63,741 bases of DNA, filler included, from Reclinomonas americana ATCC 50394 (GCA_048213135.1; 27 parts of 27 records of this genome joined end to end with filler, not necessarily neighbours in it), one strand, 5' to 3'. Counted from the whole stretch's first letter, positions 17,737 to 43,772 are shown. Notes: generated from the letters alone by a model not told the origin. Translations and numbers: made by a program.

Positions 17737-17744
17737 TTAACCAT
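17737..17744 (+). promoter_or_regulatory. TTAACCAT CtrA half-site-like motif upstream of chemoreceptor
   Basis: Exact TTAACCAT in an AT-rich patch about 60 nt upstream of the MCP start. CtrA control of chemotaxis genes is established in Alphaproteobacteria. Confidence 0.45.
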
Positions 17745-17805
17745 ACTCTGGTTTCATTCCAAAGTGGCCGAGGGGCGCCGCGCATCACGGTTGGGGAACC
17801 GCATC

Positions 17806-18764: not shown

Positions 18765-18864
18765 NNNNNNNNNNNNNNNNNNNNNNNNNNNNNNNNNNNN
18801 NNNNNNNNTTAATTAATTAANNNNNNNNNNNNNNNNNNNNNNNNNNNNNNNNNNNNNNNNNNNN

Positions 18865-19403
18865 AGCTCGCGCAGGCGGGCGGGAACGTCGTCGCGGTCG
18901 ACCGTTCCGGTCCGCGCTTGCGCCGGCTCAAGGCCAATCTCGAACGGCTCGGACTGAGCGCCGAGATCGTCACCGCCGATGTGACGGCCTTCGAGGCGGA
19001 GCCGTTCGACGCTGTCCTGCTCGACGCGCCCTGCAGCGCAACCGGCACGATCCGCCGCCATCCCGATGTCGCCTGGACCAAGCGACCGGAGGATGTCGAC
19101 AAGCTCGCCGCCCTGCAGGCGCGACTTCTCGACCAGGCGGCGCGGCTGACCAAGCCAGGCGGGCGCCTGATCTACTGCACCTGCTCGCTCGAACGCGCGG
19201 AAGGCGAGGCGCAGATCGAGGCCTTCCTGGCCCGAAACGACGGTTTCGCTCGCGATCCGATCAAGCCCGAGGAGATCGGCGGCCGGGCTGAGGCGCTGAC
19301 GGCTGAGGGCGAATTGCGCACGCTGCCGCACCAGCTTGCCGGCGAGACGCCGCGCCTCTCAGGATGGGCGGGATTTTACGCTTGTCGCCTGATAAGATCA
19401 TGA
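18865..19403 (+). CDS. rsmB: RsmB/NOP family RNA m5C methyltransferase (5' truncated)
   Basis: FDAVLLDAPCSATGTIRRHPD and GGRLIYCTCSLE..EGE. Confidence 0.9.
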
Positions 19404-19461
19404 CTCGATCGGGGATTCGCCTTCGCAGGGAGGCGGTGGGACGGCGAGGCAGCAGACTTCA

Positions 19462-20109
19462 TTGAACGGCTGGTCGGAGCGCGGGGGCCTTGCACGGGCA
19501 GCCATCGGCAGGGCGGCGCGACGCACGCGCGGCCAGGTTGCCGGTGCCAAGCGTGCGCTCTGGCCCTTCGGTCGCCTGCGCGCCAGCCGGCTGCTCTTCG
19601 CCCCGCACGACCTGCGCACCGCCGACCCGACCACGGCGAGCGACATCTATGCCGGCTATTTCGCCCTCGCCGGTCGTACCGTGAACTGCCATGGCGAATC
19701 ACCCTTCCTGGTCGCGCCGCCGAGCGAGGCCTGGTCCGAGGCGCTGCACGGCTTCGTCTGGCTGCGCCATTTGCGCGCCGCCGACACCGCGATCGCCCGG
19801 GCCAATGCCCGCGCCCTCGTCGACGAATTCATCGCGCGCCGGCATGATCGCGACGAGATCGCCCGCCGCCCGGCCGTCATCGCCCGCCGGCTCATGTCGT
19901 TCCTGTCGCATTCGCCGCTCCTGCTCGAAGGCGCCGACCACGCCTTCTACGAACGCTTCATCCGCCATGTCGCGCAGACCGCCGAGCGGCTGCAGCTCGC
20001 GCTTGCGGGCGCCGTCGAAGGCGCCGCGCGGCTGCAATGCCTGATCGCGATCTGCTTTGCCGCCATCTGCCTCGACGGCCAGGAGCGGCGCCTGCGCCGC
20101 TACGAGATC
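19462..20109 (+). CDS. Heparinase II/III family protein (3' truncated)
   Basis: RLLFAPHDLRTADPT.A.DIYAG.F and LHGF.WLRHLRA; this family typically follows rsmB in Hyphomicrobiales. Confidence 0.85.
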
Positions 20110-20779
20110 NNNNNNNNNNNNNNNNNNNNNNNNNNNNNNNNNNNNNNNNNNNNTTAATTAATTAANNNNNNNNNNNNNNNNNNNNNNNNNNNNNNNNNNN
20201 NNNNNNNNNACACATACACACACACACATACACACACAGTCCCACTCCTCCCTGAATCTCAGCTCACATGCGAGCGAGACGTACGCAACCTTTTCCTCAC
20301 TCCCTTCAGACTTGCCCCTCTCTCTCTCTCTCATTCTCCTCAATTACACTCTCTCGGCGCTCTCTCCACTGCCCCTCTGTTGCCTTTCTTATCTCTCTCA
20401 CTCACTCACTCATTTATGCTCCCTCCTCCCCACACCTGGCTTGCTTGCAGAGAGCGTGAGCGAGTCGAACTCAACCCTCTCGCTCACACCCTCAGACTTG
20501 CTAATCTCTCTCTCTCTCTTCTTCTTCTTCTTCTTCTTCTTCTTCTCATTCCCCTTTTACTCTCCTCTCCTCTCTTCTCCCATGCTGTCAATTGTCACTT
20601 CTTCCACATTCAGCCCGTCAAGACTTCCTGTGCCCGCAATACAGCACATCGCTTGGTAAATAGCAACTCCTCACACAGTACAGTCCTCTCTCGTGTGCCT
20701 AAACCCTCCTTTCCCTCGCCCAAACTCCCCCCTTCCCTTTATCGCCCTTCCCTTAACACCCCCTTCCCCTCACACGCAC

Positions 20780-26256
<5,477 letters not shown>

Positions 26257-26799
26257 GAGTGGTCAGCACGTGTGTGTGCGCGCGCGGGTTGCAATGAGGG
26301 GAGAGGAAGGGGTTGAGCGCGCTGTGGAGTTGCGCGCGAAGATGCGTTGTCCTGCAAGGCGGGAAACGTCGGCATTTGGTTTTCGTGTTTGTTCTTCGCG
26401 TGCGCACTTGCATCCTTGCTTGTCTCTCTCCTGCACGCATATGGTGCATGCAGGGGAAAGCGCTTTGCGATCAAGGCAAGATCCGGAAACTTCGGAATAT
26501 TAATATTTTGCTTCTGTGTTTCCCGCATCCGTGCCTGCTTGCAAACTGTCTTGCTTTTGGTCTCCTCCTCCGTATGCACATGGTGGTCAAGCAAGTGTGC
26601 ACGGAGAAGCAAGCGCGCGTCGGCGAGAGGACTTCGCGATCGGAACTTCGGAGATTTGCAACTCACTTCACTTCTCACGTTCCCTCCTCCCTCCTGCGCT
26701 GCAAACTCTGATCAGCAGATCTTATATTCCTCTCCTTGAGTAAAGAAGGACATCGAAAGGACAACTCACTTGTCTCTGTTATGTCAGTCCGCGCGCGCA

Positions 26800-27918
26800 A
26801 TGACCAGTACTAGTTCTCCCCCTTGGCCTCCTTCACTCCTGTGCAGGGATCTCTGCGAGTACACGCACTGGGTGTGGTCTCTCTCCATCGCCATCACTCC
26901 CGACGCTCAGCACGTGGTGAGTGCAGCGGGGATCGTAGACGACACAGTGCGCGTGTGGTCACTGGCGAGTGGAGCAGAAGTGCGACGACTGGCAGGCCTC
27001 GGAACAGCGGGCTTCAATGCTGCCGCTGTCACACCCGACAATCAGCACATTGTGGGTGGAGGTGATGATCAAATACTGAGTGTGTGGTCACTGGCGAGTG
27101 GCGAGGAGGTGCGACGATTGAAGGGGCACACTGAGGCGGTCTCCTCTGTCGCGGTCACTCCCGACGGACGGCACGTGGTGAGTGGGAGTCGGTATGGCAT
27201 TGTGCGAGTGTGGTCACTGGTGAGTGGCGAGGAGGTGTGGGTGTTGGTGGGGCACACGAGGTCGGTGGATTCTGTGACTGTGACGCCGAATAGTCAGCTC
27301 GTGGTGAGCGGGAGTGTTGACAGTACTGTGCGTGTGTGGTCGTTGGCGAGTGGCGAGGAGGTGCGACGGCTGAAAGGACACACTCGGGCAGTGTTTAATG
27401 TTGCCGTCACTCCCGATGGTCTGCATGCGGTGAGTGGAGGTGATGACAAGACGGTGCGGGTGTGGATGCTGGCGAGCGGGGAAGAGGTGCGACGGTTGGA
27501 GGGGCACGCTGGATGGGTGCAGTCTGTCGCTATCACTCCCGATGGACGACACGTTGTGAGTGGGGGCAATGACAGCACTGTGCGAGTGTGGTCACTGGCA
27601 ACTGGGGAGGAAGTGCAACGGTTGGAGAACAACTCTGGAAGCGTACTGGCTGTCGCCGTCGCCCCCGATGGTCAGCACATCGTATGTGGTATTGTCGACG
27701 GCAAAGTGCGGGTGTGGTCCACTCCGTGCGGTCTCGCTCAGCAGGAGCTTCGCGTAGCGCGTCTGGCCATGTGCAGTGTGCAGGATATGCAGGAGGAGGA
27801 GGAGGAGGAGGAGGCAGATCGGCGCTGCCTCGTGGAGATGGTACTGCGCTGCTTCCTCGTGGAGGAGGCGGAGGTCGTCGTGAATCGATGCTTCATCGAT
27901 GACAGCCTTCGACTGTGA
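26800..27918 (+). CDS. WD40 array gene 1: 7 WD40 repeats plus conserved acidic/helical C-terminal tail
   Basis: Intronless ORF of about 42-aa units GHxxxVxxVAVTPDGxHxVSGxxDxTVRVWSLASGEEVRRL, ending in the tail GLAQQEL...EEEADRRCLVEMVLRCFLVEEAEVVVNRCFIDDSLRL. Confidence 0.92.
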   Translation: MTSTSSPPWPPSLLCRDLCEYTHWVWSLSIAITPDAQHVVSAAGIVDDTVRVWSLASGAEVRRLAGLGTAGFNAAAVTPDNQHIVGGGDDQILSVWSLASGEEVRRLKGHTEAVSSVAVTPDGRHVVSGSRYGIVRVWSLVSGEEVWVLVGHTRSVDSVTVTPNSQLVVSGSVDSTVRVWSLASGEEVRRLKGHTRAVFNVAVTPDGLHAVSGGDDKTVRVWMLASGEEVRRLEGHAGWVQSVAITPDGRHVVSGGNDSTVRVWSLATGEEVQRLENNSGSVLAVAVAPDGQHIVCGIVDGKVRVWSTPCGLAQQELRVARLAMCSVQDMQEEEEEEEADRRCLVEMVLRCFLVEEAEVVVNRCFIDDSLRL

Positions 27919-28086
27919 CCTGCTTTCCCTTTCTCTCCTTCCGACAACCTGCCAGAGTTGTTCTACTACCCTGAATGAAGAAGGTGTTTTTAACTTGCCT
28001 GCACTCGGGGGTGAGTGAAAGATGTCCGCCACAAGAGGACACGCACTCCTTCTCACCTTCTCAATTCCTTCGTCGCCACGCCAGCC

Positions 28087-29175
28087 ATGACCTCCACTCC
28101 CACTACTCCTTTTCTGTGCAAGTGCCTCCACGGACATGACGCCACTGTGACGTCTGTCGCCATCACTCCCGACGGACTGCACATCGTGAGTGGCAGTGAA
28201 GACAAGACGATTCGCGTGTGGTCACTCGCGAGTGGAGCAGAAGTGCGACAGTTGAAGGGACACACTCTACCAGTGACTTGTGTTGTCGTCACTTGCGACG
28301 GACTCCACATTGTGAGCGCGGGTGATGACGAGACTGTGCGCGTGTGGTCGCTGGCGAGTGGCGAGGAAGTGCAACGACTGGAGGGACACACTTGGTTGGT
28401 GAAGTGTGTCGCCGTCACACCTGATGGACGACACATCGTGAGTGGGAGTATTGACGGCAGCATGCGAGTGTGGTCAGTGGAGAGTGGCGAGGAAGTGCGG
28501 CTGTTGAAGGGACAGTTCCGCAGTGTTATCTGTGTTGCCATCGCACCCGATAGCAAGTACCTTGTGTGTGCGAGTAATGACGAGGTGTTGCGAGTGTGGT
28601 CACTGGCGAGTTGGGAGGAAGTGCGACGGTTGGATGGGCACCCTGGGTGGGTATGGTCTGTCGCCGTGACTCCCGATGGTCAGCACGTTGTGGGTGGGTG
28701 TGATAACGGCTCAGTGTGCGTGTGGTCACTGGAGAGTGGCAAGGAAGTGCGACGAATGGTGGGGCACTCCGAGGCGGTTCTGTCTGTCGCCGTCTCTCCC
28801 GATGGTCAGCACGTGGTGAGTGGCAGTGATGACAGCACAGTACGAGTGTGGTCATTGGAGAGTGGAGAGGAGGTGCAACGGTTGGAGGGTCACGCAGGAC
28901 TCTCCTGCGCTGCCTCCGTCGCCCCCAATGGTCAGCACATCGTGAGTGGCGGTGTTGACTGCGTTGTGCGGGTGTGGTCCACTCCGTGCGGCCTCGCTCA
29001 GCAGGAGCTCTGCGCCGCGCGTTCGGCCATGTGCAGTGTGCAGGATATGCAGGAGGAGGAGGAGGAGGAGGCAGATCGGCGCTGCCTCGTGGAGATGGTA
29101 CTGCGCTGCTTCCTCGTGGAGGAGGCGGAGGTCATTGTGCATCGATGTTGGGCCGATGACAGCCTTCGACTGTGA
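28087..29175 (+). CDS. WD40 array gene 2
   Basis: Same architecture; start MTSTPTTP in gccATGa context. Confidence 0.92.
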   Translation: MTSTPTTPFLCKCLHGHDATVTSVAITPDGLHIVSGSEDKTIRVWSLASGAEVRQLKGHTLPVTCVVVTCDGLHIVSAGDDETVRVWSLASGEEVQRLEGHTWLVKCVAVTPDGRHIVSGSIDGSMRVWSVESGEEVRLLKGQFRSVICVAIAPDSKYLVCASNDEVLRVWSLASWEEVRRLDGHPGWVWSVAVTPDGQHVVGGCDNGSVCVWSLESGKEVRRMVGHSEAVLSVAVSPDGQHVVSGSDDSTVRVWSLESGEEVQRLEGHAGLSCAASVAPNGQHIVSGGVDCVVRVWSTPCGLAQQELCAARSAMCSVQDMQEEEEEEADRRCLVEMVLRCFLVEEAEVIVHRCWADDSLRL

Positions 29176-29346
29176 CGTGCTCCGCCCTTCTGTTTTCCCA
29201 CTCTTGCTTCTGAAGACAGCAGGTGTTGTTCTGTTCGCTTGAATGAAGAAGGGGCTGTGAACGTCCGGGGGAAGGGAAGTGGGCACCCAGGACACACTTC
29301 CTTTCCTTCTGTTGTCCTTTCCTTCCTTCCTTCGTCACCACGCGCC

Positions 29347-30169
29347 ATGACCTCCACTCCCACTACTCCCCTCCTGTGCAAGTGCCTCCACGGGCACACC
29401 AGCCACATCCGATGCGCTGCCTTCTCACCCACACTGCAGCACATCGTCACCGGGAGTGTGGACGGAACACTTCGCCTGTGGTCACTGGCGAGTGGAGCAN
29501 NNNNNNNNNNNNNNNNNNNNNNNNNNNNNNNNNNNNNNNNNNNTTAATTAATTAANNNNNNNNNNNNNNNNNNNNNNNNNNNNNNNNNNNNNNNNNNNNT
29601 CGGTGTCGAGCGGAGAGGAGGTGCGACGGTTGAAGGGACACACTGACCGCGTGTCGACTGTCGCTGTCACCCCCGACGGCGAGCACATTGTGAGTATCAG
29701 CGAGGACAAGACGGTGCGCGTGTGGTCGCTAGTGAGTGGCGAGGAGGTGCGACGGTTGGCAGGGTACTCCGATCGAGTGACGCCGGTCGCCATTGCTGCC
29801 ACTGGTCAGCATTTGGTGAGCGGGAGTGTCGACAAGTCGGTGCTGGTGTGGTCACTGGCGAGTGGGGAAGAGGTGAGGCGGTTGGAGGGGCATACGGCGA
29901 TTCCGTGCGCTGTCGCCGTCTCGCCTGACGGGCAGCATGTGGTGAGCGGCAGTCTCGACAACTCCGTGCTGGTGTGGTCCACGTCGTACGGCCTCGCTCA
30001 GCAGGAACTCCGCGCCGCGCGTCTGTCCATGCGTGTTGTGCAGGAGATGCAGGAAGAGGAAGAGGCACACTCAAGATGCCTCGTGGAGATTGTTCTGCGC
30101 TGCTTCGTGGTCGAGGAGGCAGCGGTGATTGTGCATCGATGCTTCGTTGATGACAGCCTCCGTCTCTGA
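29347..30169 (+). CDS. WD40 array gene 3 (interrupted by linker; may be pieces of two genes)
   Basis: N-terminus at 29347-29499 and C-terminal repeats plus tail at 29600-30169. Confidence 0.8.
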
Positions 30170-30316
30170 CGTTCTCTTCTCTTGGTTTTCCCTTTTTTGC
30201 TTCTAAAGACAGCGGTTGTTGTTATATATACGTGAATGAAGGAGGGGCTGTGTACTTCGGGGGGAGGGAAGTGTCCGTCAAGGACGCACACTTTATTCTC
30301 GCACACCACGCCAGCC

Positions 30317-31130
30317 ATGACCTCCACTCGCACTCCTCTCCTGCGCAAAAGCCTGCGCGGGCACACCGCCTCTGTGCTCTGCGTTGCCATCACTCCCGAC
30401 GGGCAGCACATTGTGAGCGGCAGTGAAGACAAGACTGTGCGCGTGTGGTCACTCGCGAGTGGAGCAGCAGTGCGACGATTGAAGGGACACTCTCACGCTG
30501 TGTGCGCTCTCGCCATCACCCCCAATGGACGGCACATTGTGAGTGGGAGTCGGGACAACACCGTGCGAGTGTGGTTACTGGCGAGTGGTGAGGAGATGCA
30601 CCGCTGTGACGGACACGTGGAGTGGGTTCGGTCGGTCGCCGTCACTCCCGATGGTCAGCACGTCGTCAGCGGCAGCTGGGATGAAACTATGCGAGTNNNN
30701 NNNNNNNNNNNNNNNNNNNNNNNNNNNNNNNNNNNNNNNNTTAATTAATTAANNNNNNNNNNNNNNNNNNNNNNNNNNNNNNNNNNNNNNNNNNNNGCGA
30801 GTGTGGTCATTGGAGAGTGGGAAAGAAGTGCTGCGGTTGAAGGGGCGTGCCTCTTGGGGGAATTATGTCGCCGTCGCCCCCGATGGTCAGCGCATTGTCT
30901 GCGGAGGTGTTCGCAAGATTGTGCGCGTGTGGTCCACTCCGTATGGTCTCGCTCAGCAGGAGCTCCGCGTAGCGCATTCCGCCATGCTTGCTGTGCAGGA
31001 GATGCAGGAGGAGGAAGGCGAGGAGGCAGATCGGCGCTGCCTGCCAGAATTGGTGCTGCGCTGTTTCGTGGTCGAGGAGGCAGCGGTGATTGTGCATCGA
31101 TGCTTCGTCGATGACAGCCTCCGTCTCTGA
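30317..31130 (+). CDS. WD40 array gene 4 (interrupted by linker)
   Basis: N-terminus at 30317-30696; last repeat plus tail at 30797-31130. Confidence 0.8.
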
Positions 31131-31289
31131 CGTGCTCTTCTCCCGGGCTTCCTCTCTTGCTTCTGAAGACAGCAGGTGTTGTTATGTTCGTGAATGAATT
31201 CTAGATGGTCAACTTGACGCACGTCGGGAATTCGAATGTCCGTCTCAAAATGGACACGCGATTCCCATTCATTCGTCGCCACACCAGCC

Positions 31290-32357
31290 ATGACCTCCGC
31301 TCCCACTACTCCTCTCCTGCCCCAGTGTCTGCGCGGACACACCGCCACTGTGCTCTGCGTCGCCGTCACTCCCGACGGGCAGCACATTATCAGTGGCAGT
31401 GATGACAAGACGATTCGCGTGTGGTCGCTGGCGACTGGCGAAGAAGTGCGACGATTGAAGGGACACTCTCGCGCTGTGTGCGCTGTCGCCATCACCCCCC
31501 ATGGACTCCACGTGGTGAGCGGAAGCAACGACAAGACAGTGCGCGTGTGGTCACTGGCGAGTGGCGAGGAGGTGCACCGATGTGAGGGACACACGCTGCC
31601 GGTCATGGCTGTCGCCATCACTCCCGATGGTCAGCACGCTGTGAGTGGCGGTGTTGACCAGCTGATCATTGTGTGGTCGCTGGTGAGTGGAGAAGAAGTT
31701 CGGCGACTGGAGGGTCACACGGATTTGGTGCGGTCGATTGCCATCACTCCCGACGGTGTGCACGTGGTGAGCGGCAGTTGGGATAAGACCGCGTGCGTGT
31801 GGTCGCTGGCGAGTGGGGAAGAGGTGCAGCGATTGCGCGCTCCGTCGACATCGTCCGTCGCCGTCACTCCCGATGGTCAGCACGTTGTGAGTGGAGGCAC
31901 GGAGAGCACTGTACGAGTGTGGTCGCTGGCGAGTGGCGAGGAGGTGCGGCGACTGGAGATCGACGACGAAGGGCTGCAGTGCATTGCGGTGACTCGCGAC
32001 GGGCAGCGCGTAGTGAGTGCGCACGAGGACCACACTGTGCGAGTGTGGTCCATGGCCAGTGGAGAGCAAGTGCGACGACTGGAGGGACACAGTGGATGGG
32101 TGATGTCTGTCGCCGTCGCTCCCGATTGTCAGCACCTTGTGAGTGGCAGCCGAGATAAGACGGTGCGCGTGTGGTCCACTCCGCACTGTTTTGCTCGGAG
32201 GGAGCTGGAGAGCGCGTGCTCGGCGATGCGCGCCGTGCAGGATGTGCAGGAGGAGGAGGAGGCTGATCGGCGCTGCCTCGTGGAGATTGTACTGCGCTGC
32301 TTCCTCGTGGAGGAGGCAGAGGTGACTGTTTCCCGGTGGTCAAGTCTCGGGCTGTGA
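31290..32357 (+). CDS. WD40 array gene 5
   Basis: Complete intronless ORF with 7 repeats and a slightly diverged tail (ADRRCLVEIVLRCFLVEEAEVTVSRW). Confidence 0.92.
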   Translation: MTSAPTTPLLPQCLRGHTATVLCVAVTPDGQHIISGSDDKTIRVWSLATGEEVRRLKGHSRAVCAVAITPHGLHVVSGSNDKTVRVWSLASGEEVHRCEGHTLPVMAVAITPDGQHAVSGGVDQLIIVWSLVSGEEVRRLEGHTDLVRSIAITPDGVHVVSGSWDKTACVWSLASGEEVQRLRAPSTSSVAVTPDGQHVVSGGTESTVRVWSLASGEEVRRLEIDDEGLQCIAVTRDGQRVVSAHEDHTVRVWSMASGEQVRRLEGHSGWVMSVAVAPDCQHLVSGSRDKTVRVWSTPHCFARRELESACSAMRAVQDVQEEEEADRRCLVEIVLRCFLVEEAEVTVSRWSSLGL

Positions 32358-32539
32358 CCTTGCTCCTTGTCTCATCTCGGTTTTTTCTGTCTCTTGATGT
32401 CTTTGCTTCTGTTCTCTTTCGCCTGCTTGTGTTGCTGGAGTGAATTCGTTGTACGTGAGGAAGCTGCGAAGTGGACAACAAGTGTCCCTATCCCAAAAGG
32501 ACGATTTCTCTCACACTCCTCCACACTCAAGAGCGAGTC

Positions 32540-32754
32540 ATGACCTCCCCTGCTCCTCCTTCTCTGCCGCACAAGCTCTTGGTACACACTAACCTCCTAG
32601 TGTGTGTCGCTGTCACTCCCGATGGCCAGTACATAGTGAGTGGCAGCAGCGACAAGACATTGCGCGTGTGGTCACTGACAAGTGGCGAGGAAGTGCGACA
32701 GTTGAGTGGGCACACCATGACGGTGGCCACTGTTGCCATCACTGCCGATGGTCG
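32540..32754 (+). CDS. WD40 array gene 6 (3' truncated)
   Basis: MTSPAPP...VAVTPDGQYIVSGSSDKTLRVWSLTSGEEVRQL. Confidence 0.85.
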
Positions 32755-33004
32755 NNNNNNNNNNNNNNNNNNNNNNNNNNNNNNNNNNNNNNNNNNNNTT
32801 AATTAATTAANNNNNNNNNNNNNNNNNNNNNNNNNNNNNNNNNNNNNNNNNNNNAAGCTGTCCTGCTGCGCCGGTTGAATAGTGGCAAGGGCCTCTGAGC
32901 ACCCCTCGAATCTGTCTCACGCGTCGAGATCGATCGGAAGCGTGTGGATTTTCAGACAAATGCCGCCGAAAAATCCGCCTGAGACAGGTTGACTGTTCAG
33001 ATAA

Positions 33005-33220
33005 ATCGCGGAATTGGGAAGCTGCTTCCTCTGCGCCGACCTCGGCATCACGCCGGAGCTCGAGCCGAGGGCGGACCACGCCTCCTACCTCGATTCCTGG
33101 CTGAAGGTTCTCGCCGATGACAAGCGCGCGATCTTCCAGGCAGCCGCACATGCGCAGCGCGCCGTCTCCTATCTGCATGATCTCCAGCCGGCCATCGCAG
33201 GCGAACGGGAGGCCGCATGA
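33005..33220 (+). pseudogene. ardC: ArdC-family antirestriction/ssDNA-binding protein, C-terminal remnant
   Basis: IAELGSCFLCADLGITPELEPRADHASYLDSWLKVLADDKRAIFQAAAHAQRAV. The upstream frame is closed by TAA and unrelated sequence. Confidence 0.8.
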
Positions 33221-33308
33221 TGGGCGCCCTCTTCTCCTCTCATCTGTTCGTCCTGATGCGACGAGATTTTCGCATCTGGCTCGGCTCTGATGGCGGGGAG
33301 GCAAGCTG

Positions 33309-34454
33309 ATGCTCCCGTCTCAACGCGCCAATCGAGAGGGCTTCACGCCCTCTCCCTTATCACCCCGTCTGCGCGTGGCGCCGGCGCTGGCGCCGATCGC
33401 CGTCACGCCGGTCTTGGACGACCTGCTTCGCCAGCATGCCGCCGTCGCCATCGGCGTCTCCGGCGGCAAGGATAGCCTGGTGGCCGCTATCGCCACCTTC
33501 GACTATCTAGACCGCATCGGGCATGCCGGTCCTCGCCTGCTGATCCATGCCGATCTCGGGATCGTCGAATGGGCGGATTCGCTCCCTGTGTGCGAACGGC
33601 TCGCAGAGCATCTCGGCGTTGAGCTCGCTGTCGTTCGCCGCGAACAGGGCGGCTTGATGGAGAGGTGGGAGAGTCGATGGCGCGCGAATGTCGCGCGCTA
33701 CGAGGATTTAAGCACCGTGACCCTCGTGTCGTGCTGGAGCACACCGGCGATGCGCTTCTGCACGTCCGAGCTGAAAACCTCGAAAATCCATGCTGCGCTC
33801 AAGCGGGGATTCCAAGGTCTTCCGATCATCAGCGTGACCGGCGTGCGGCGAGAGGAGAGTCATCGCCGGGCCCGCGCCGAGATCGCCGAGCGAAATGCGT
33901 CCAATGGCATCTGGACCTGGCGGCCGGTCCTCAACTGGACCGATGTCGAGGTCTTCGAGGCGCTCGATGCGCGTGGTGTCCTGCTTCACCCGGCATATCG
34001 GCAGTTCGGGCTGTCGCGTGTATCGTGCCGGTTCTGCATCATGTCGAGCCTCGCCGATCTCAAGGCCGCGAGCTGCCAGCCGGAGACCCATGACCTCTAT
34101 CGCAGGATGGTCGACCTCGAATGCCGCAGCACCTTCGCGTTCCAGGGCGCACGCTGGCTCGGAGACGTCGCTCCGCATCTCCTCGATGCCGACATCCGCG
34201 ACGCCCTGATGTTGGCGAAAGAGGCGGCCAGGCGGCGCGTCGCGATGGAGCGCCGCATTACCCGGCCGATGTAGTACCAGAAGGGCTGGCCGAGCCGCAT
34301 GCTCTCCGACTGCGAAGCGGATCTGCTCGCGGAGGTCCGCAGCGAGGTCAGCCGCCTGTTGCACCTGAACGCCCGGTATCTCGACCGTGAGGCAATCCAT
34401 GGCCGCTACGCAGAATTGCTGGCGATCCATCCCGGCGGACGGAGGCGGACATGA
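33309..34454 (+). pseudogene. PAPS reductase family protein with in-frame TAG at 34272-34274
   Basis: PP-loop VSGGKDS, RFCTSELK, TGVRREES.RRA and LSRVSCRFCIM. The frame stays open and coding-like after the TAG (YQKGWPSRML...RYAELL) to TGA at 34454. Confidence 0.75.
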
Positions 34455-35272
34455 GCGATGATCGCTCATCCTTGGCAGCGTTTGCGCAGGAGTGTGACGA
34501 TGGCCGCGCCCTCGGATTGCACGGCGCAGATTGGAGTAGTGATGGGCCACCGCCCGTTTCGGGCGGCCGCGCTCTATGCCTGCGGCACTGAGCCAGCCTA
34601 CGGCCGTCTCAGCCGATTCCGGTTACGATCGCTTGTCCGGCGTGCGCCCGGGATTGCCGCGGAGAAGTCCCGCCTTGGGACGGGCTCCAGCGAGAGAGTA
34701 GACCTTACGCACCAGACGATTCAGGACGCCGGCGAGCCGTCCTCCATCTCGCGCGGCCGCACCGGCCGATGGCGCATGAATGCACACTGGTTACGGCTTG
34801 GCACAGATGTCGGTCCTGGCCACCTGAGAATTGTGCTCCGGCCCACACCAACTCCAAGCCCGAGCGACGGCGGCCGTGAATCCGGGGGTCAATCCTGCGA
34901 GGCGTCGGCGGCTCAGAACGGGCTCGCGACCGGACGTGGCACAGGGAGGGGCGACGCCGGGGATAGTTCCGTCGCCGTTGGTCATGTCATCGAACGCCAC
35001 CGATGAGCCAGCGCCATGGCCAGGCAGCTCTCCGCTCTACCNNNNNNNNNNNNNNNNNNNNNNNNNNNNNNNNNNNNNNNNNNNNTTAATTAATTAANNN
35101 NNNNNNNNNNNNNNNNNNNNNNNNNNNNNNNNNNNNNNNNNCGCTACTTTTCGCACGCCAGCGTCACCTTTTTCGGCTGAGATTGTCATAGGCAGCTCGA
35201 AGCGGAAGTTTGGCGTCGCTAGTGTCGCAATCCTTCGGGGCACGATCCGGGCATTCCTTGTGACGCGACTGT

Positions 35273-35707
35273 CTAGCGTTCGGTCGGTTGGGTGGAGACC
35301 ACTTGATCCACCAGCCGACGCAGTTCTTCACGAACCGTGGTCCGGTTTCTGATGCAGTGCATCTTGAAGGCCTGCGCCTTGTCGATGGGGACCGTCGTTT
35401 GCAGCACCATGTGCTCGGGCTTCTCGACCGGGGCCGATGATATGGGGGCCGTTGGTCGCTCGGGATAATGAGCCGCGTCGGATGTCGGTGGGGTGTCGGA
35501 GTTCGCATTCTTAACGGGATCGTTCGTCATCCCGCCGACATCGAGGCTGCGCGGATCGCGTTGCGCCTGAAGCCGCAGATCCTGTGGTGGGTCGCCGATC
35601 TCGGTCAGCTCCTCGAGTCTTTGGAACGGGCCGGAGCTCCGCTTCTTTGGCAACGAGGGTAGCCGGCTGCCGGTCGCGGACACCGCTTTGTCGGGCTCCT
35701 CGGCCAT
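35273..35707 (-). CDS. Hypothetical protein with C-terminal ribbon-helix-helix-like region (ParG/VirC2-like partner)
   Basis: Start overlaps the parA stop. Disordered N-terminus, then LQTTVPIDKAQAFKMHC...VREELRRLV (beta-alpha-alpha pattern). Confidence 0.6.
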   Translation of the reverse strand: MAEEPDKAVSATGSRLPSLPKKRSSGPFQRLEELTEIGDPPQDLRLQAQRDPRSLDVGGMTNDPVKNANSDTPPTSDAAHYPERPTAPISSAPVEKPEHMVLQTTVPIDKAQAFKMHCIRNRTTVREELRRLVDQVVSTQPTER

Positions 35708-36417
35708 CAGCGCGCACTCCCCAACCGATTGATGATTTCCGCGGCGACGGCGTTCGTCTGATCCCGCGCCTCTTTAATGGGCCTGGTCTCGCCGTCGACC
35801 TCGTAAAGGGTGCCTGCCGTCGCGATCGCGCCAAAGGTAGGCCGCTGCGACAGATAGCTGTCGAACAGTTGCACCTCGGCTTTCGTCAATTGCGCGAGTG
35901 CCGTCCTGAAGGCCATGGTGTTCTTGTCGATGCCCGACACGCCGTTCATCAGCACGCCGTACGGAATCGTCCGGTGCCGCCCTCCGAGCAATTCGATTTG
36001 CCGGACCAGAGCCAGCGAGCTGTCGACATCGAAGACGTGTGGGCGGGTCGGGATAACAACGAAGTCGGCATACGCAACGGCGGCACCCATGGCCGCGCTC
36101 GCAGTCCCCTGGATATCGACGAGAATCAGGGAGTAGTGCCGCGCGTTCTTCAGTGTCTCGCCGAGAGCGGTGACATCGGTCACCGAGACCAGGTCGATAT
36201 CACGTAGTGCGAAGCCAACCTTCTTGCTGTTCCGGTACCAGCGCGAGGCGGATTCCTGCGGATCGGTATCGACGACAAGGACCTTGTGTCCAGCGGCCGC
36301 GAACTCGCCGGCGAGCAGGATCGTGGTCATGGTCTTTCCCGCCCCACCTTTGGGCGAGGCGATCGTGACTTGTAGGGCTTCGCTGTCAGGTTCGCTCACC
36401 TGGCGCTTTTCCTTCAA
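35707..36417 (-). CDS. parA: ParA/VirC1-like ATPase
   Basis: Deviant Walker A KGGAGKT, VDTDPQ and ILVDIQG...ADFVVIP. Confidence 0.9.
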   Translation of the reverse strand: MKEKRQVSEPDSEALQVTIASPKGGAGKTMTTILLAGEFAAAGHKVLVVDTDPQESASRWYRNSKKVGFALRDIDLVSVTDVTALGETLKNARHYSLILVDIQGTASAAMGAAVAYADFVVIPTRPHVFDVDSSLALVRQIELLGGRHRTIPYGVLMNGVSGIDKNTMAFRTALAQLTKAEVQLFDSYLSQRPTFGAIATAGTLYEVDGETRPIKEARDQTNAVAAEIINRLGSAR

Positions 36418-36684
36418 AGAACTTGAGTCATTCCACCATTCTGCAATGACGTCATTCGCTCAATATATCAAGCAAAGATCCGAAAAGTCACGTCGTTTCA
36501 GTCCCGGCTGAGGGGATGGGAGCGTGATGCGATGAGCGAATGACACGATGAGCGGCAATGCGAATGACAGAATAGAAGAATGAGAAGTTGACGGGATGGC
36601 CAGCAAGTCGAATGATGGAATGAAGTTATCGTCGGATTGTTAGATGTATTTATGAGTGCATTGCGGGTATTTTTGAGATTTAAT

Positions 36685-36715
36685 TGACAAGATACTCAAT
36701 TTGGGTCCAAATTGA
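36685..36715 (-). promoter_or_regulatory. Putative oriT (MOBP-type nic site with adjacent inverted repeat)
   Basis: The minus strand reads TCAATTTGG-AC-CCAAATTGA-GTATCTTG^TCA: a perfect 9-bp inverted repeat directly 5' of a YATCCTG-like nic motif. It lies between divergent parA and mobC/relaxase. Confidence 0.65.
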
Positions 36716-36783
36716 TCGGCAGGTCGCGCCGCCGGCGACCTGGGCCGGCTGCGCCGGCACCTTTCCCTTCCAAGGGAGCTTTC

Positions 36784-37191
36784 ATGTCTGCCACCAAGAC
36801 CCGAGCCGACGAACGCAAAAGAGCCCGCGTCGATCTCACGCCCGAGGTGAGCGCGTGGCTCGACGAGGCGTCACGGGCCTTTGGCTTGAGCCGCTCAGAG
36901 ACCCTTCGGCGCCTGATTCAGGCGAGCCTCGATGTCGGTCCGGCGCTCTCTGCCGAGAACTCCCGCACGGTCGCAGCGCTCGCATCCCAAGTCCGGATGG
37001 TGGGCCGGAACCTGTCGCAACTCGTTCACGCGATCCATGCCGGGCGCGCGCCTTCGATGGAAGCGGCGCTGCCGATCTGGGAAATCCTGGACGAGCGGGT
37101 GAGCGCGATCGATCATGAGCTGACTGCGATGACCGTGGCGTATGGTCTGAAGCTCCGTCGGGCCGCGCATATGCGGGAGATCGAGGCGTGA
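36784..37191 (+). CDS. mobC: MobC-like relaxosome accessory protein
   Basis: RHH-like N-terminus (LSRSETLRRLI) and QVRMVGRNLSQLVHAIH, matching the MobC L..IG.NLNQ motif; overlaps the next gene (GTGA). Confidence 0.8.
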   Translation: MSATKTRADERKRARVDLTPEVSAWLDEASRAFGLSRSETLRRLIQASLDVGPALSAENSRTVAALASQVRMVGRNLSQLVHAIHAGRAPSMEAALPIWEILDERVSAIDHELTAMTVAYGLKLRRAAHMREIEA

Positions 37192-38649
37192 GCGTCGATC
37201 AGGCCGCCTTGGATGGCATGGCGATGCAGATGCGCGCGCGCCTTGCGGCGGAGGCGGAGAATCGCCTGATCCGCCAGTCCAGGGCAGGGGAGGGATATTC
37301 CGCCCCGCGCCCATATTTCGCGGCGCGGCAGCATCACGGNNNNNNNNNNNNNNNNNNNNNNNNNNNNNNNNNNNNNNNNNNNNTTAATTAATTAANNNNN
37401 NNNNNNNNNNNNNNNNNNNNNNNNNNNNNNNNNNNNNNNCATCTCTCCGATGCCCGGGTGCAGGGCGATCGCCGGTTCAGCGCCCCCACCCGACAGATGA
37501 TCGCTGATCGTGTCGGCGCCGCGATCGGTATCCCAGCCGAGGCAGTCGATGTCGTTCCAGTTGGCAAGGCGAGCCACGGCAAGGCTGGTGTCATCTACCA
37601 GCTCTCTCGGCTGACCCATGACGGCAAGGCACGAGGCGGAGATGGCGAGGTGATCGCGACCGAGCCGCAGGTGCGCGCTGCGGCCCAGGCCTGGAGCAAG
37701 GCGCTCCGTTCCTTCTCGCCACGCGATACGATGCACATGATCCTGTCGGCGAAGGCCGGTGAGGACAAGGCGGCGCTGGTTCGGGCGGCGCGCGGGTTTC
37801 TGCACGAGCTGTTCCCCGAGCATAAATTCGCATTCGCGCTTCATGATGACAAAGAAGTCGATGGGCATATGCATGTCCACGTCATCGTCGCAGTCAAGGG
37901 CGAGGACGGGCAGAGACTGCGGCCGGGCCCGGCCGACCTGCGGAACTGGCGTGCGGTCTATGCGACTCATGCCCAGCAGCAAGGTCTCAAGATCGTCGCC
38001 ACTTCGGCCGCCTACCGCGCGTCGTCGCAGAGCTACGGTCCGCGCGACAAGGCGATTGTCGACGTCGCTGAACGGCCGCGCGCGGGGCGGGAGGCCCAGG
38101 ACCGAGCCTATGCGAAGGCCAATCCGCATGTCGTCGAGAAAGCGCGGCAGCGCATTCAGCGCGCCAGGATCAACCCCGTTCGGCTGCCGGAGACCGGGTC
38201 ACAACTCGCTGCCGCAGGCGAGGGGCTGCGGGACTGGCAGGCGGTCGCACAGGCGCAGCCGAACCATCCGGCTGCGGCTCAATATATTGCGCGGCTGACG
38301 CAAAGCCTCGCTTCGGGTAAGATTCTGGTCTCGCTCAATCAGTACCGAAAGGCATCGAACATGGCTGACGCGACCGCCGCCGAGATGCGGGAAAACCTGA
38401 AGGACATCAGCGAGGCCGTGGCGCTTGCTGCCGGCGTCATGGGGGGCGCGACGAAGATGGAGTTCCTGCGCCGGACCGCTGCGACCATGGAGAAGCTGGC
38501 AATCCAGACCGATCTCAAGGCCAGTCAGGAAAGCGGGCAGACGCACATGTCCGAGGACGAGGTGCACCAGCTTCTCGGTCCGCATGCTGATGCGCTGATC
38601 GCCCGCGCTCGCGAGATCGAGGCGGCTGAACAGCGCGAGGCCGAGCGGG
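37188..38649 (+). CDS. MOBP/VirD2-like relaxase (split by linker, 3' truncated)
   Basis: RDTMHMILS (motif II) and FALHDDKEVDGHMHVHVIV (HUH motif III), followed by GQRLRPGPADLRNWR..YA. The N-terminus is coupled to mobC. Joining across the gap is inferred. Confidence 0.85.
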
Positions 38650-41864: not shown

Positions 41865-43772
41865 ACACGTACAGTCTTGTCTTGACTGCCGCTCACGACG
41901 TGGAGGCCATCTGGTGTCACTGCCACAGCCCTCACCGCTTTCGTGTGCCCTTCCAGTCGGCGCACTTCCTCGCCAGTTGCCACTGACCACACATGTACAG
42001 TACCGTCAGCACTGCCACTCACAATGTGCTGGCCATCGGGTGTCACTGCCACTGCGCTCACCACACTCGTATGGCCTTCAATTGGTTTTCTCGGCCACTT
42101 CATACCCGTCATATACGCCCCCGTGAAATCCGCCTCTCTCGCAAATGCCATGCACACATTCACCCCTCGCATATCCGCTCCCCTCCACACAGTCCTGTGC
42201 ATCACTGCATCCCTCAAGTCCGCACCGGGTATTCGCACACCGGACAGTTCGCGCCCGCTGAACGAGACCTCGGCGAGACACAGCGCACTGGCCGCACTCG
42301 ACGACACGGCAGCGACTCTTTCCTCCGTGCGTGAAAGAGCAATCACCTTCCACAGTACGTCATGGAGAGACGGATCAGCCTGCACTTGCTCGGCGACGAA
42401 TGACAGGATGGAATTAAGTCCCTGCAGCCAGCGAAGAAGGGGTGAGCGCATGTCGTGAGAGCGAATGATGGAAAGGATGCACTCACTTCATCCGATGTGA
42501 GCAGTGTCCGCTGGCCACTGAAGCTGGCGCACAGTCTGTCGAGCCGATCCTGCACCGAGGTAGGTTGACAATCATGCAGAATGAATGATCAGAGAAGCAT
42601 GACGATACTCACCTCCAACTCCACCTCCTCATCGGCCAACAACCGCACATCAGCCAGCCACGACTGAGCGGCAAAGTACTCCAGCACCGATTTGTGCATG
42701 AACTCCACACGCTGTTGCGATGCTCCGAGTCGACTCCACTTCAACAATGCCTGTGTCGTATCTCGAATGAGAACGCAGGGAATGCATCGCCATGAGAGAG
42801 GGACGACGCAACAGCGCGAACAAGGGAGTTCTGCAGCGGATCATCACGATCAAACCACTTGTTCCACACATGCTGCTCTGCGACAGCTTGTTGAGTGTGC
42901 TGTGATGAATGAAGGATAGTGAGCTGAGACACGCAGATGGAACAGGAATTGTAGCACACTTCTCATGTTGAACGTACAGACCTCGAGCTTTCCCTGCCGC
43001 ACAGATACCAAAGAGTGTTGCATCATCTCTCCAGCAAGCTCCGAGCAAAAGTCCCACACTCGCAGACAGAAATTCTCTTCCGATTCTTCGTCGCCATACA
43101 ACTGTGCAAGAATGATTTGTGTAAGAAGGCATGTATTCCACACTGTGATCCACAACCGCCAACGGCACACCTGACGAATGTGCACTTGGTGATGCTCAAA
43201 CTCCCAGCGCAGTTTGTGTTTGGCAAACGCCTCATACAAACGTGCACGAGTTACACGATTCGTGAAGAGTGCAGTACCACCGCCAGCGCCGTCATGGCGG
43301 TGCTGCAACCGTTCCAGATCTTCCATCACCAGAACAATCATATTCAACATCAGGGGCTGTTATGGAAATGGGGGAAAGGAGGAAAGTGAGTACCACCGCC
43401 GCCACTGCATGTACATGTGAAATTCTTTTGTTGTGCTGTCACTTTTCTTGTCGCTCTCGTACAACACTCTTCACGTCGATATCAGAGCGCACTCTGTTTC
43501 CTTCCATCATCAACGACTCACCGACGAAGCCAGTCCATCCAATCCCGGCGTGCGCTCGATCTGCTGCTTGTACTGCTCCCATGAGCGAGGGTGATCCGCT
43601 CGTGACTCCACAAACCTGCTCACACAAAAGTGAATGTGTAATCCAAGTGAACAAGCACGGCAGAGCAGCGATGGCACTCAACTTGTGCAAAAAGAGATCA
43701 ATGTCATCCTTGGAGAACAGACGCAGCATACATCGTACAAGCGTACGCTCCGACTGATGAAGCCGCTCGGCA
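41865..43772 (-). CDS. Spliced NACHT/STAND-pentapeptide-WD40 (NLR-like) protein, internal fragment
   Basis: Motifs appear in the expected order: LFSKDDIDLFL; PLMLNMIVLVM; VTRARLYEAF; FMHKSVLEYFAA (42702-42667, NACHT winged-helix signature); FSGRELSGVRIPGADLRDA...GADMRGVN...ADFTGA (pentapeptide); then WD40 repeats. The Walker A lies outside the contig. Confidence 0.8.

What the first reader, a model, noticed from the sequence alone, without database searches (positions are those of the whole stretch)
26800..32754. Tandem array of at least 6 intronless, hypervariable stand-alone WD40 genes: candidate diversified recognition repertoire
Seen: six head-to-tail genes 147-182 bp apart. The three complete copies each have 7 repeats of about 126 bp. 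The scaffold is near-invariant (VAVTPDG.H.VSG..D.TVRVWSLASGEEVRRL.GH). Variation concentrates just after GH(T) (e.g. EAVSS, RSVDS, RAVFN, GWVQS, LPVTC, WLVKC, DLVRS) and in SG[SG]xDx. The genes lack introns although the flanking XRN1 is intron-dense. Known: high-identity WD40 repeats varying at these top-face positions characterise fungal HNWD/HET-E non-self receptors that evolve by repeat shuffling. Inference: this is an amplified family of sensor or decoy propellers without an NTPase domain, which may be an undescribed protist immune/recognition system.
Basis: partly seen in the sequence, partly recalled or inferred. Interest (0 to 1): 0.8.

Follow-up and report, generated by a model that had tools for sequence, protein, structure and literature searches.

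The report
Tandem stand-alone WD40 propeller gene family
A protist genome fragment carries a row of about six related, intron-free genes, each encoding a seven-bladed WD40 propeller plus a shared tail of unknown function; the copies differ mostly on the ligand-binding face, which is normal for this repeat type and does not by itself show an immune role.

Summary
The WD40 genes are real. The window, however, is 27 short contigs joined by artificial linkers, and the "array" lies on three of them (24801-29499, 29600-30696, 30797-32754). There are three complete genes (G1, G2, G7; 355-372 aa, 7 blades each) and five truncated pieces, so 6 to 8 genes. They sit head to tail with homologous 147-182 bp spacers and have no introns, beside an intron-split XRN1.

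- Copies are old paralogues: 58-72% aa identity, pS about 0.5.
- Blades are 50-55% identical within a gene, far from the about 85-100% of fungal HNWD repeats.
- Variation does peak at the top-face positions (11, 12, 14, 30, 32). The same positions are the most variable in unrelated database WD40 proteins of this repeat subtype.
- dN/dS at top-face sites is about 0.8-1.0, not above 1. The scaffold gives 0.3-0.4.
- Terminal blades keep positional orthology, so this is birth-and-death duplication, not concerted evolution.
- A conserved 60-aa acidic/helical tail is nearly orphan. Its only relative among 1.84 billion cluster representatives is a Reclinomonas americana EST product.

Best reading: a lineage-specific family of binding adaptors with a shared tail. 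An immune role is neither shown nor excluded.

The parts
24804..26262 (-). 5' exons of an XRN1-type 5'-3' exoribonuclease gene, divergent from G1. The gene continues on the two preceding contigs (22882-24700 and 20210-22781).
   Evidence: Pfam XRN_N positions 25-95 here, XRN_N 158-221 plus XRN_M 2-33 on the next piece, and XRN_M 172-324 on the one after, all on the - strand in separate frames. The '[15 protein letters not shown]' start is in ORF 25948-26262.
26800..27918 (+). G1: complete intronless gene, 372 aa, 7 WD40 blades plus a 61-aa tail.
   Evidence: ORF; Pfam WD40 4.7e-57; blades.
27919..28086 (+). 168-bp spacer between G1 and G2. It is homologous to the other spacers and is part of the roughly 1.26-kb duplication unit.
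   Evidence: Alignment A3 shows conserved blocks and a conserved context before the ATG.
28087..29175 (+). G2: complete intronless gene, 362 aa, 7 blades plus a 60-aa tail.
   Evidence: ORF; Pfam WD40 1.3e-70; AF2 model with mean pLDDT 88.7, 7 blades, and tail helices 300-322 and 329-341 at low confidence.
29347..29499 (+). G3p: 5' fragment (51 aa: N-terminus plus blade 1), cut by the contig end.
29500..29599 (.). Artificial linker between contigs (N44-TTAATTAATTAA-N44), not genomic sequence.
29600..30169 (+). G4p: 3' fragment (blades 5-7 plus tail plus stop). It may be the same gene as G3p across a gap.
30317..30696 (+). G5p: 5' fragment (N-terminus, blades 1-2, most of blade 3), cut by the contig end.
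   Evidence: It is the closest relative of G7 (84% nt in blades 1 and 2).
30697..30796 (.). Artificial linker between contigs.
30798..31130 (+). G6p: 3' fragment (end of blade 6, blade 7, tail, stop). It may be the same gene as G5p across a gap.
31290..32357 (+). G7: complete intronless gene, 355 aa from the conserved MTS start (373 aa from an upstream in-frame ATG at 31236), 7 blades plus a 55-aa tail.
32540..32754 (+). G8p: 5' fragment (71 aa), cut by the contig end. The following contig is bacterial.
41865..43772 (-). X9: a separate multi-exon gene on another contig. Its last exon joins pentapeptide repeats to WD40 blades of the same subtype as the array, and it runs off the contig end. It is related context, not part of the array.
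   Evidence: tblastn 60% identity to G2 blades; Pfam Pentapeptide 1.2e-9 and WD40 7.6e-22; frames. Its blades are 50-61% identical on average to array blades, against 33-35% to 958 database blades.

Best explanation
This is a lineage-specific (jakobid-type protist) multigene family made by tandem duplication of an intronless unit of about 1.26 kb (gene plus spacer).

Each gene encodes a small cytosolic protein with two parts:
- a closed seven-bladed WD40 propeller, in which the N-terminal strand completes blade 7;
- a conserved, acidic, partly helical tail of about 60 aa that has no known family.

Shown:
- The gene anatomy and the propeller fold.
- Old divergence between copies.
- Purifying selection on the scaffold and the tail.
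- Near-neutral replacement rates at the D-A and B-C loop (top-face) positions.
- Positional orthology of the terminal blades, which indicates birth-and-death evolution.
- A local 3' gene-conversion tract between the neighbours G1 and G2.
- A cDNA (EST) of a family member from Reclinomonas americana.

Inferred:
- The propellers act as binding adaptors whose top faces have diverged to take different ligands.
- The shared tail couples all of them to one common partner or location.
- On this reading the family works like a panel of interchangeable substrate or ligand receptors, rather than a rapidly shuffling immune repertoire.
For: - Anatomy: 3 complete ORFs and 5 fragments, all without stops, with 7 blades in 3 of 3 complete genes.
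- Fold: AF2 gives a 7-blade propeller with pLDDT about 97 over the blades. The closest solved folds are bacterial PkwA 5yzv (39% identity, rmsd 1.0), designed 7-blade WRAP-T, and WDR5.
- Duplication unit: 4 of 5 spacers share conserved blocks.
- Distinct copies: 58-72% aa identity to G2; pS 0.49-0.53 over blades 1-6.
- Selection, 56 same-position blade pairs: scaffold dN/dS 0.29, top-face sites 0.93.
- Selection, tree-based counts on three supported blade clades: 0.36 for the scaffold, against 0.84 for top-face sites (1.04 against pooled synonymous changes).
- Tails: dN/dS 0.17-0.57.
- Blade tree: blade-1 clade UFBoot 99, blade-7 clade 98, G5p_b2+G7_b2 97.
- Conversion: G1-G2 identity is 86-98% over roughly 220 bp at the 3' end, against 52-79% elsewhere. 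pS is 0.11 in the tail, 0.29 in blade 7 and 0.51 in blades 1-6.
- Variable sites lie in the top loops: 2.20 bits, against 1.21 in the bottom loops.
- Eukaryotic origin: the array is on the same contig as the intron-split XRN1. The only tail relative among 1.84 billion representatives is a Reclinomonas americana EST product.
Against: - There is no direct evidence that any copy binds anything, or that the tail has a partner.
- dN/dS of about 1 at top-face sites is equally what complete lack of constraint would give.
- In the youngest pair (G5p/G7, blades 1-2) top-face pN (0.174) is below scaffold pS (0.32). At least there, the face is conserved rather than diversifying.
- No expression data exist for these very copies. 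The EST product is only 59-62% identical to them.
- Contiguity of the three contigs rests only on the XRN1 order.
- The tail is modelled at low confidence (pLDDT 47-69).
- Several blades have lost the DH[ST]W tetrad: 9 of the 30 blades complete at the four tetrad positions. This could mean some decay.
Confidence: 0.55

Rival explanations
1. Recognition or immune repertoire. The stand-alone propellers would be sensors or decoys for non-self ligands. They might work with multi-domain WD40 proteins of the same repeat lineage, such as X9.
For: - The most variable positions are the top-face ones. The four that I equate with the HNWD selected codons have mean entropy 3.10 bits against 1.45 overall; only 9 of 111,930 four-site sets are as high.
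- dN/dS at those sites is not below 1.
- The organisation is tandem and the family is lineage-specific.
- The same genome has a multi-exon gene ending in pentapeptide repeats plus WD40 blades of the same subtype.
Against: - Repeats are only 50-55% identical within a gene.
- There is no sign of ongoing concerted evolution, and blade number is fixed at 7 in 3 of 3 genes.
- dN/dS is not above 1.
- The youngest pair conserves its top face.
- The same variability pattern occurs in unrelated database WD40 proteins.
- No NTPase or death/effector domain was found.
- X9's upstream part has no detectable STAND family match.
Confidence: 0.15
2. Redundant or drifting paralogues. The function (if any) resides in the scaffold and tail, and the top face is simply unconstrained, so its variation has no meaning for specificity.
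For: - dN/dS is about 0.8-1.0 at top-face sites, with pN 0.58-0.63, near saturation.
- Several blades have lost tetrad residues.
- GC3 is a little lower than in XRN1 exons (0.65-0.75 against 0.75-0.84).
Against: - All 8 pieces keep open frames despite pS of about 0.5.
- The scaffold and tail are under purifying selection.
- The top face is conserved between G5p and G7 in blades 1-2.
- From general knowledge of WD40 proteins, not tested here: the top face is the usual binding site.
Confidence: 0.15
3. Bacterial genes: either contamination, or a recent horizontal transfer of a bacterial WD40 gene that then amplified.
For: - The genes have no introns, in an intron-rich genome.
- The assembly holds bacterial contigs.
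- The nearest sequence and structure relatives of the propeller include bacterial WD40 proteins.
Against: - The array is on one uninterrupted contig with intron-split XRN1 exons.
- GC is 56-60%, like the other eukaryote-type contigs and unlike the 65-70% bacterial ones.
- The best database identity is only 39-51%, and over the propeller alone.
- A relative is found as a Reclinomonas EST product.
- Contamination is therefore very unlikely. An ancient transfer of the repeat type cannot be tested with repeats this consensus-like.
Confidence: 0.05
4. Assembly artefact: one or two genes mis-assembled into several copies.
For: The assembly is highly fragmented. Contigs break inside the repeats (29499, 30696, 32754).
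Against: - All pieces differ strongly. The best blade pair is 84% nt identical, and whole genes are 61-66% aa identical.
- Two complete genes and the start of a third lie on a single contig.
Confidence: 0.02

Closest known systems
Fungal HNWD/NWD (HET-E, HET-D, HET-R) NACHT-WD40 non-self recognition genes of Podospora anserina (Paoletti 2007, PMC1805685, passages read; Dyrka 2014, PMC4986451, passages read; Chevanne 2010, PMC2873952, search listing only)
   Same: - 42-aa WD40 units of the same consensus type.
- The most variable sites flank a conserved V and a conserved D on the top face. These are my positions 12/14 and 30/32, which I equate with their codons 7/9 and 25/27 from the pattern alone, not from an alignment.
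- Several paralogues per genome.
   Different: - No HET or NACHT domain.
- Internal repeat identity is 50-55%, not about 85-100%.
- Terminal blades are orthologous by position rather than homogenised.
- Blade number is fixed at 7.
- dN/dS is not above 1.
- There is an extra conserved C-terminal tail.
- The genes are in a tight tandem array.
Prokaryotic and 'moderately/highly repetitive' WD40 proteins (Hu et al. 2017, PMC5587647, passages read), e.g. Thermomonospora curvata PkwA WD40 domain (PDB 5yzv; paper PMC6113231 seen in search listing only)
   Same: - Consensus-like repeats with DH[ST]W tetrads.
- Internal identity is in their 0.4-0.7 'moderately repetitive' band by my measure.
- Conserved scaffold with diverse hotspot sites.
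- Best structural match, and the best sequence matches (39-51%) are of this kind.
   Different: - Those proteins are usually multi-domain (kinase, FHA, NB-ARC and others appear among the hits), and often have more than 7 repeats.
- Here the propeller stands alone with an orphan tail.
- The genes are eukaryotic and tandemly arrayed.
WDR5-type single-propeller adaptors
   Same: Seven-blade propeller of about 300 aa; Foldseek TM-score 0.77-0.78 on the query and about 0.9 on the target, at about 30% identity.
   Different: WDR5 is a single-copy, highly conserved chromatin adaptor (general knowledge). It has no such tail and no tandem paralogues.
Families of WD40 substrate receptors that share a short docking module (for example WD40 plus a C-terminal SOCS box, or F-box plus WD40). 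Recalled from general knowledge, as an analogy for the mechanism only.
   Same: A variable propeller paired with a short conserved module common to all members.
   Different: No SOCS-box, F-box or other Pfam family matches the tail, even at E up to 5. Membership is not claimed.

Membership tests
WD40 repeat beta-propeller (Pfam PF00400) | Several WD40 repeats above the Pfam gathering score. | tested here: met
   188-234 bits against a cutoff of 27; 5-7 stretches in each of 3 of 3 complete genes.
WD40 repeat beta-propeller (Pfam PF00400) | Closed propeller of 4-stranded blades. | tested here: met
   AF2 model with 28 blade strands in 7 blades, pLDDT about 97. Foldseek probability 1.00 to solved 7-blade WD40 domains.
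Moderately repetitive WD40 proteins (Hu 2017: internal identity 0.4-0.7) | Internal repeat identity between 0.4 and 0.7. | tested here: met
   Mean within-gene blade identity 0.53 (G1), 0.50 (G2), 0.55 (G7). My identity measure may differ from theirs; I read the definition as passages only.
HNWD/NWD fungal NLR-like genes | NACHT NTPase domain upstream of the repeats. | tested here: not met
   Only 8-16 residues precede blade 1. The previous gene's stop is 147-182 bp upstream. No NTPase family in Pfam.
HNWD/NWD fungal NLR-like genes | N-terminal effector domain (HET or other). | tested here: not met
   Same as above.
HNWD/NWD fungal NLR-like genes | High internal repeat conservation (about 85% aa or more over at least 100 aa; Dyrka 2014). 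| tested here: not met
   Within-gene means 0.50-0.55, within-gene maximum 0.71; overall maximum 0.79.
HNWD/NWD fungal NLR-like genes | Concerted evolution: repeats group by gene or genome, not by position. | tested here: not met
   Blade-1 and blade-7 clades by position, UFBoot 99 and 98. Internal blades are unresolved, with one off-register pair (G1_b5+G2_b2) at 84.
HNWD/NWD fungal NLR-like genes | Repeat-number polymorphism. | not testable with these tools
   All 3 complete paralogues have 7 blades. There are no strain data, and no sequencing run was listed.
HNWD/NWD fungal NLR-like genes | Positive selection (dN/dS above 1) at the four top-face codons. | tested here: inconclusive
   These sites are the most variable, but dN/dS is 0.93 (pairs) and 0.84-1.04 (tree counts). 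Sites are near saturation. The 1.3-3.3 seen in single close pairs rests on 5-17 synonymous sites.
STAND/NLR-type protein (for the separate gene X9) | P-loop NTPase (NACHT or NB-ARC) domain. | tested here: inconclusive
   The contig starts inside the gene. The exons present give no Pfam, PDB or database match. Two short motifs merely resemble, from my recall, motifs downstream of NACHT domains.

The most novel reading that the evidence does not exclude
The array is the free-standing sensor or decoy arm of a protist innate recognition system. On this reading, propellers of one repeat lineage exist both fused to signalling modules (X9-like genes) and as a tandem panel of stand-alone proteins. The shared orphan tail would plug the stand-alone proteins into a common effector. 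That would be a split, NLR-like architecture in a deep-branching eukaryote (a jakobid).
Probability: 0.12. Interest if true: 0.75.

Novelty: new member of a known kind. Interest (0 to 1): 0.32.

Why it matters
Jakobids are deep-branching, bacterivorous eukaryotes whose nuclear gene families are little described. A tandem, intronless WD40 family with an orphan tail is a compact case of birth-and-death evolution of a binding module. It is a candidate for lineage-specific adaptor or recognition functions.

The main value of this check is corrective:
- The window is a concatenation of contigs.
- The repeats are not HNWD-like in their dynamics.
- The 'variable top face on a conserved scaffold' pattern is generic for this WD40 subtype, so it should not be read as evidence of immunity on its own.

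Tried and rejected
- Whole genome: none is held for this window.
- Earlier findings of this scan: nothing by place, sequence or words.
- Sequencing runs: none was listed for 26600-29499 and no RNA holder was listed. Read depth, copy number and expression of these copies could therefore not be examined, and read laying was not used.
- Full-length G2 against 5.8 billion proteins: 3318 hits at E<=1e-10 among 8000 scored candidates. The 120 listed have 25-51% identity and cover only the propeller. No family member was found.
- The three complete proteins are not in the 15-billion collection by exact look-up.
- Tail:
  - Pfam gives nothing meaningful at E up to 5 (one chance-level LCE6A match at 0.017).
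  - The ESM Atlas gives no usable hit.
  - Of 41 metagenome loci found with a blade-7-plus-tail alignment, none encodes the tail (best tblastn E 2.9).
  - A tail homodimer job gave no support (score 0.02, mark 0.32; controls not run).
- A possible zinc site (C-x7-C...H-x-C) in the tail was rejected, because the H and the last C are not conserved in G1, G7 or the EST product.
- A C-terminal peroxisomal signal was considered because jakobid Pex7-like WD40 'Gcp' proteins are reported with PTS1 (preprint 10.1101/790865, passages read). The ends here (…SLRL, …SLGL) do not look like PTS1 from my recall, and no Gcp sequence was available to compare.
- X9 upstream exons: no Pfam, PDB or database relatives.
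- XRN1 fragment search for organism affinity: best hits are green algae and a fish at 45-58% identity, which is uninformative.
- Contig end overlaps: none beyond a trivial 6 nt.
- Literature: searches for Reclinomonas/nuclear genome/WD40, jakobid/NACHT/WD40/NLR and Andalucia godoyi/WD40/gene family listed no paper describing such an array. Supplements were not consulted.

Full report
**1. What the window is**

The 63,741-base window is not one stretch of genome. It is 27 pieces of 1.2-5.5 kb joined by 26 identical 100-base linkers (44 N, TTAATTAATTAA, 44 N).
- Pieces of 53-61% GC carry intron-split eukaryotic genes.
- Pieces of 65-70% GC carry plain bacterial genes: alanine racemase, cyclopropane-fatty-acid synthase, protoglobin, PAPS reductase, ParA/VirC1, a MobA/VirD2 relaxase, Wzz and a polysaccharide exporter.

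This is therefore a fragmented assembly of a protist together with bacteria.

The finding (26800-32754) spans three pieces:
- A: 24801-29499
- B: 29600-30696
- C: 30797-32754

Two linkers lie inside the supposed array, and the finding ends at a contig end. The order of pieces is probably meaningful. An XRN1-type gene runs on the minus strand, in correct order and orientation, through three consecutive pieces: XRN_M 172-324 on 20210-22781, XRN_N 158-221 and XRN_M 2-33 on 22882-24700, and XRN_N 25-95 on piece A. Adjacency of A, B and C is nonetheless not shown by the sequence itself. Contig ends do not overlap.

**2. Anatomy**

All genes are on the + strand.
- Piece A holds G1 (26800-27918, 372 aa), G2 (28087-29175, 362 aa) and the start of G3p (29347-29499).
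- Piece B holds the end of G4p (29600-30169) and the start of G5p (30317-30696).
- Piece C holds the end of G6p (30798-31130), G7 (31290-32357, 355 aa) and the start of G8p (32540-32754).

That makes three complete genes and five fragments. The count is six genes if G3p/G4p and G5p/G6p are each one gene across a gap, and eight if not.

Four of the five are clearly homologous, with conserved blocks and a conserved context before the ATG. The duplicated unit is therefore gene plus spacer, about 1.26 kb.

Each complete protein has four parts:
- 8-16 N-terminal residues
- a first strand that stands where strand D stands in every later unit
- exactly seven 42-residue units (one of 43, one of 40)
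- a tail of 55-61 residues that is acidic (net charge -4 to -9)

Pfam sees only WD40. AlphaFold2 on G2, with a 28-row alignment, gives a seven-bladed propeller (mean pLDDT 88.7, about 97 over the blades). The tail is modelled as two helices (300-322 and 329-341) at low confidence. The nearest solved structures are the bacterial PkwA WD40 domain (5yzv, 39% identity, rmsd 1.0 Å), designed 7-blade WRAP-T proteins, and WDR5 (about 30%).

The genes have no introns. The neighbouring XRN1 appears as at least six separate frame segments, and another gene (X9, below) has several short exons.

**3. Where the variation lies, and a control**

I put 33 blades (30 full, 3 partial) in one 42-column register. 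Shannon entropy is highest at the following positions:

| Position | Entropy (bits) |
|---|---|
| 14 | 3.64 |
| 11 | 3.51 |
| 12 | 3.19 |
| 30 | 3.16 |
| 7 | 2.78 |
| 32 | 2.65 |

V13, D31 and W37 are conserved. By the model's strands, these sites are the D-A loop, the start of strand A, and the B-C turn. From established WD40 knowledge this is the top face. Top loops average 2.20 bits and bottom loops 1.21.

Paoletti et al. 2007 (PMC1805685, passages read) found four HNWD codons (7, 9, 25, 27) under positive selection, flanking conserved codons 8 and 26. By the same flanking pattern these correspond to my 12, 14, 30 and 32. This equation is inferred, not aligned. Their mean entropy here is 3.10 bits against 1.45 overall, and only 9 of 111,930 possible four-site sets are as high.

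The pattern is not special to this locus, however. I sliced nine unrelated database hits in the same way.
- One gave too few blades.
- Four (P0013, P0025, P0075, P0119) have irregular spacing and 25-39% blade identity, so their ranking is not informative.
- In the other four (P0023, P0022, P0058, P0037), with regular 42-aa spacing and 51-75% blade identity, the most variable positions are again 10, 11, 12, 14, 30 and 32.

Hu et al. 2017 (PMC5587647, passages read) already describe conserved repetitive WD40 repeats with diverse 'hotspot' sites, frequent in prokaryotes, fungi and protists.

**4. How the copies evolve**

The copies are old and distinct.
- Identity to G2 is 58-72% aa.
- pS is 0.49-0.53 over blades 1-6 between complete genes.
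- Blade-to-blade identity:

| Comparison | aa identity | nt identity |
|---|---|---|
| Same position, different gene | 58% | 66% |
| Different position, same gene | 53% | 64% |
| All other pairs | 52% | 61% |

- The maximum is 79% aa, and within-gene means are 0.50-0.55.

This is far below the 'about 85%' to '100%' of HNWD repeats and the 85% criterion for high internal conservation. It falls in the 0.4-0.7 'moderately repetitive' band of Hu 2017.

A maximum-likelihood tree of the blades shows:
- blade 1 of five genes grouped together (UFBoot 99; G1's aberrant blade 1 excluded itself)
- blade 7 of five genes grouped together (98)
- blade 2 of G5p and G7 grouped together (97)
- internal blades unresolved, with one off-register pair (G1_b5+G2_b2, 84) and weak within-gene groupings (47-52)

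This is birth-and-death duplication of whole seven-blade genes. At most there was old, limited blade rearrangement, and there is no ongoing concerted evolution.

One clear local exchange exists. G1 and G2 are 86-98% identical over about 220 bp at the 3' end, against 52-79% elsewhere. pS falls from 0.51 (blades 1-6) to 0.29 (blade 7) and 0.11 (tail).

**5. Selection**

With an a-priori top-face set (positions 7, 10, 11, 12, 14, 15, 30, 32):

| Method | Top-face sites | Other sites |
|---|---|---|
| Nei-Gojobori, 56 same-position blade pairs | dN/dS 0.93 (pN 0.58, near saturation) | 0.29 |
| Parsimony counts on trees of three supported blade clades | 0.84 (1.04 against pooled synonymous changes) | 0.36 |

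- Single close pairs give 1.3-3.3 at top-face sites, but on only 5-17 synonymous sites.
- In the youngest pair (G5p/G7, blades 1-2) top-face pN (0.174) is lower than scaffold pS (0.32).
- Tails have dN/dS of 0.17-0.57.

In short, the scaffold and tail are under purifying selection, and the top face evolves at about the neutral rate. There is no demonstrated excess of replacements, and the test has little power at this age.

**6. The tail and the organism**

The tail has no Pfam family. In a search of 1.84 billion cluster representatives it has one relative (E 4e-19, 65% identity). That relative is a 116-residue product of a Reclinomonas americana EST in EukProt, which covers blade 7 plus the tail. 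It is 59-62% identical to each window copy.
- None of 41 metagenome loci retrieved with a blade-7-plus-tail alignment encodes the tail.
- The family is therefore, as far as these libraries show, confined to a jakobid lineage.
- At least one member is transcribed there.
- A bacterivorous jakobid would also explain the bacterial contigs (inference).
- I found no paper describing such an array.

**7. A related gene elsewhere in the window**

On contig 41865-43772 (minus strand) a multi-exon gene ends in one exon that joins pentapeptide repeats (Pfam 1.2e-9) to WD40 blades, and runs off the contig. Its two blades are 50% and 61% identical on average to the array's blades (maxima 64% and 80%). Against 958 database blades the averages are 33-35%, so it belongs to the same repeat lineage.

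Its upstream exons match nothing. Two short motifs remind me of motifs that follow NACHT domains, but this is recall, not a test.

**8. Interpretation**

Shown:
- A real, eukaryotic, tandemly duplicated, intronless family of stand-alone seven-blade WD40 proteins with an orphan conserved tail.
- A scaffold and tail under constraint.
- Top faces that have diverged.

Inferred (confidence about 0.55): the members are adaptors with diverged ligand specificities, tied to a common partner or place by the tail.

Rivals:
- An immune or recognition repertoire (0.15). This is not excluded, since top-face dN/dS is not below 1 and a fused relative exists. It lacks every dynamic hallmark of HNWD genes.
- Unconstrained drift of the top face (0.15).
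- Bacterial origin (contamination very unlikely; an old transfer is untestable).
- Assembly artefact (rejected).

Absence of introns in an intron-rich genome suggests origin by retroposition or transfer before amplification. I could not test this.

**9. Verdict**

| Item | Verdict |
|---|---|
| Observation | partly confirmed |
| Kind | new member of a known kind (repetitive WD40 propellers), with an orphan tail as its only unexplained feature |
| Interest | about 0.3 |

Noticed in passing
whole window; linkers e.g. 29500-29599, 30697-30796, 32755-32854: The window is 27 contigs joined by 26 identical artificial linkers (N44-TTAATTAATTAA-N44). Any feature that crosses a linker is not contiguous sequence.
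   Followed up: yes
11427-20109, 32855-38649, 49254-58122: High-GC (61-70%) contigs carry ordinary bacterial genes, including a plasmid-like pair: ParA/VirC1 at 35710-36459 (-) and a MobA/VirD2 relaxase at 37440-38648 (+). They also carry capsule/polysaccharide export genes (Wzz, Wza-like). These are probably food or contaminant bacteria in the protist assembly.
   Followed up: partly
41865-43772 (-): A multi-exon gene (X9) has a last exon that fuses pentapeptide repeats to WD40 blades of the same lineage as the array. Its upstream exons have no detectable family, and the gene is cut at both contig ends.
   Followed up: partly
28023-28041, 30272-30285, 31237-31256, 32483-32502: A small inverted repeat, TGTCC-N5-12-GGAC, lies 45-64 nt upstream of the ATG in 4 of 5 spacers. 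Window-wide the pattern is not enriched (7 matches against 5.25 expected). It may be a conserved promoter or UTR element, or simply inherited with the duplicated unit.
   Followed up: partly
about 28915-29135 and the matching part of G1 (about 27655-27880): There is a 3' gene-conversion tract between neighbours G1 and G2: 86-98% nt identity and tail pS 0.11, against 0.51 over blades 1-6.
   Followed up: yes
24409-24689 and 24804-25800: A (GA)n microsatellite of about 145 copies and GA/AG-rich low-complexity sequence with a 105-bp tandem repeat lie inside what appears to be an XRN1 intron. They produce long spurious ORFs on both strands.
   Followed up: no
43874-45040 (-): An ORF of 389 aa with weak BNR/Asp-box and Sortilin-Vps10 matches (E about 2e-7, the Sortilin match below the Pfam cutoff), on a 60% GC contig of unclear origin.
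   Followed up: no
27592-28541, 28998-29444, 30953-31618, 31554-32339 (-): Long antisense ORFs (148-262 aa) run across the WD40 genes. I take them to be by-products of the repeat's composition, not genes. This was not tested.
   Followed up: no
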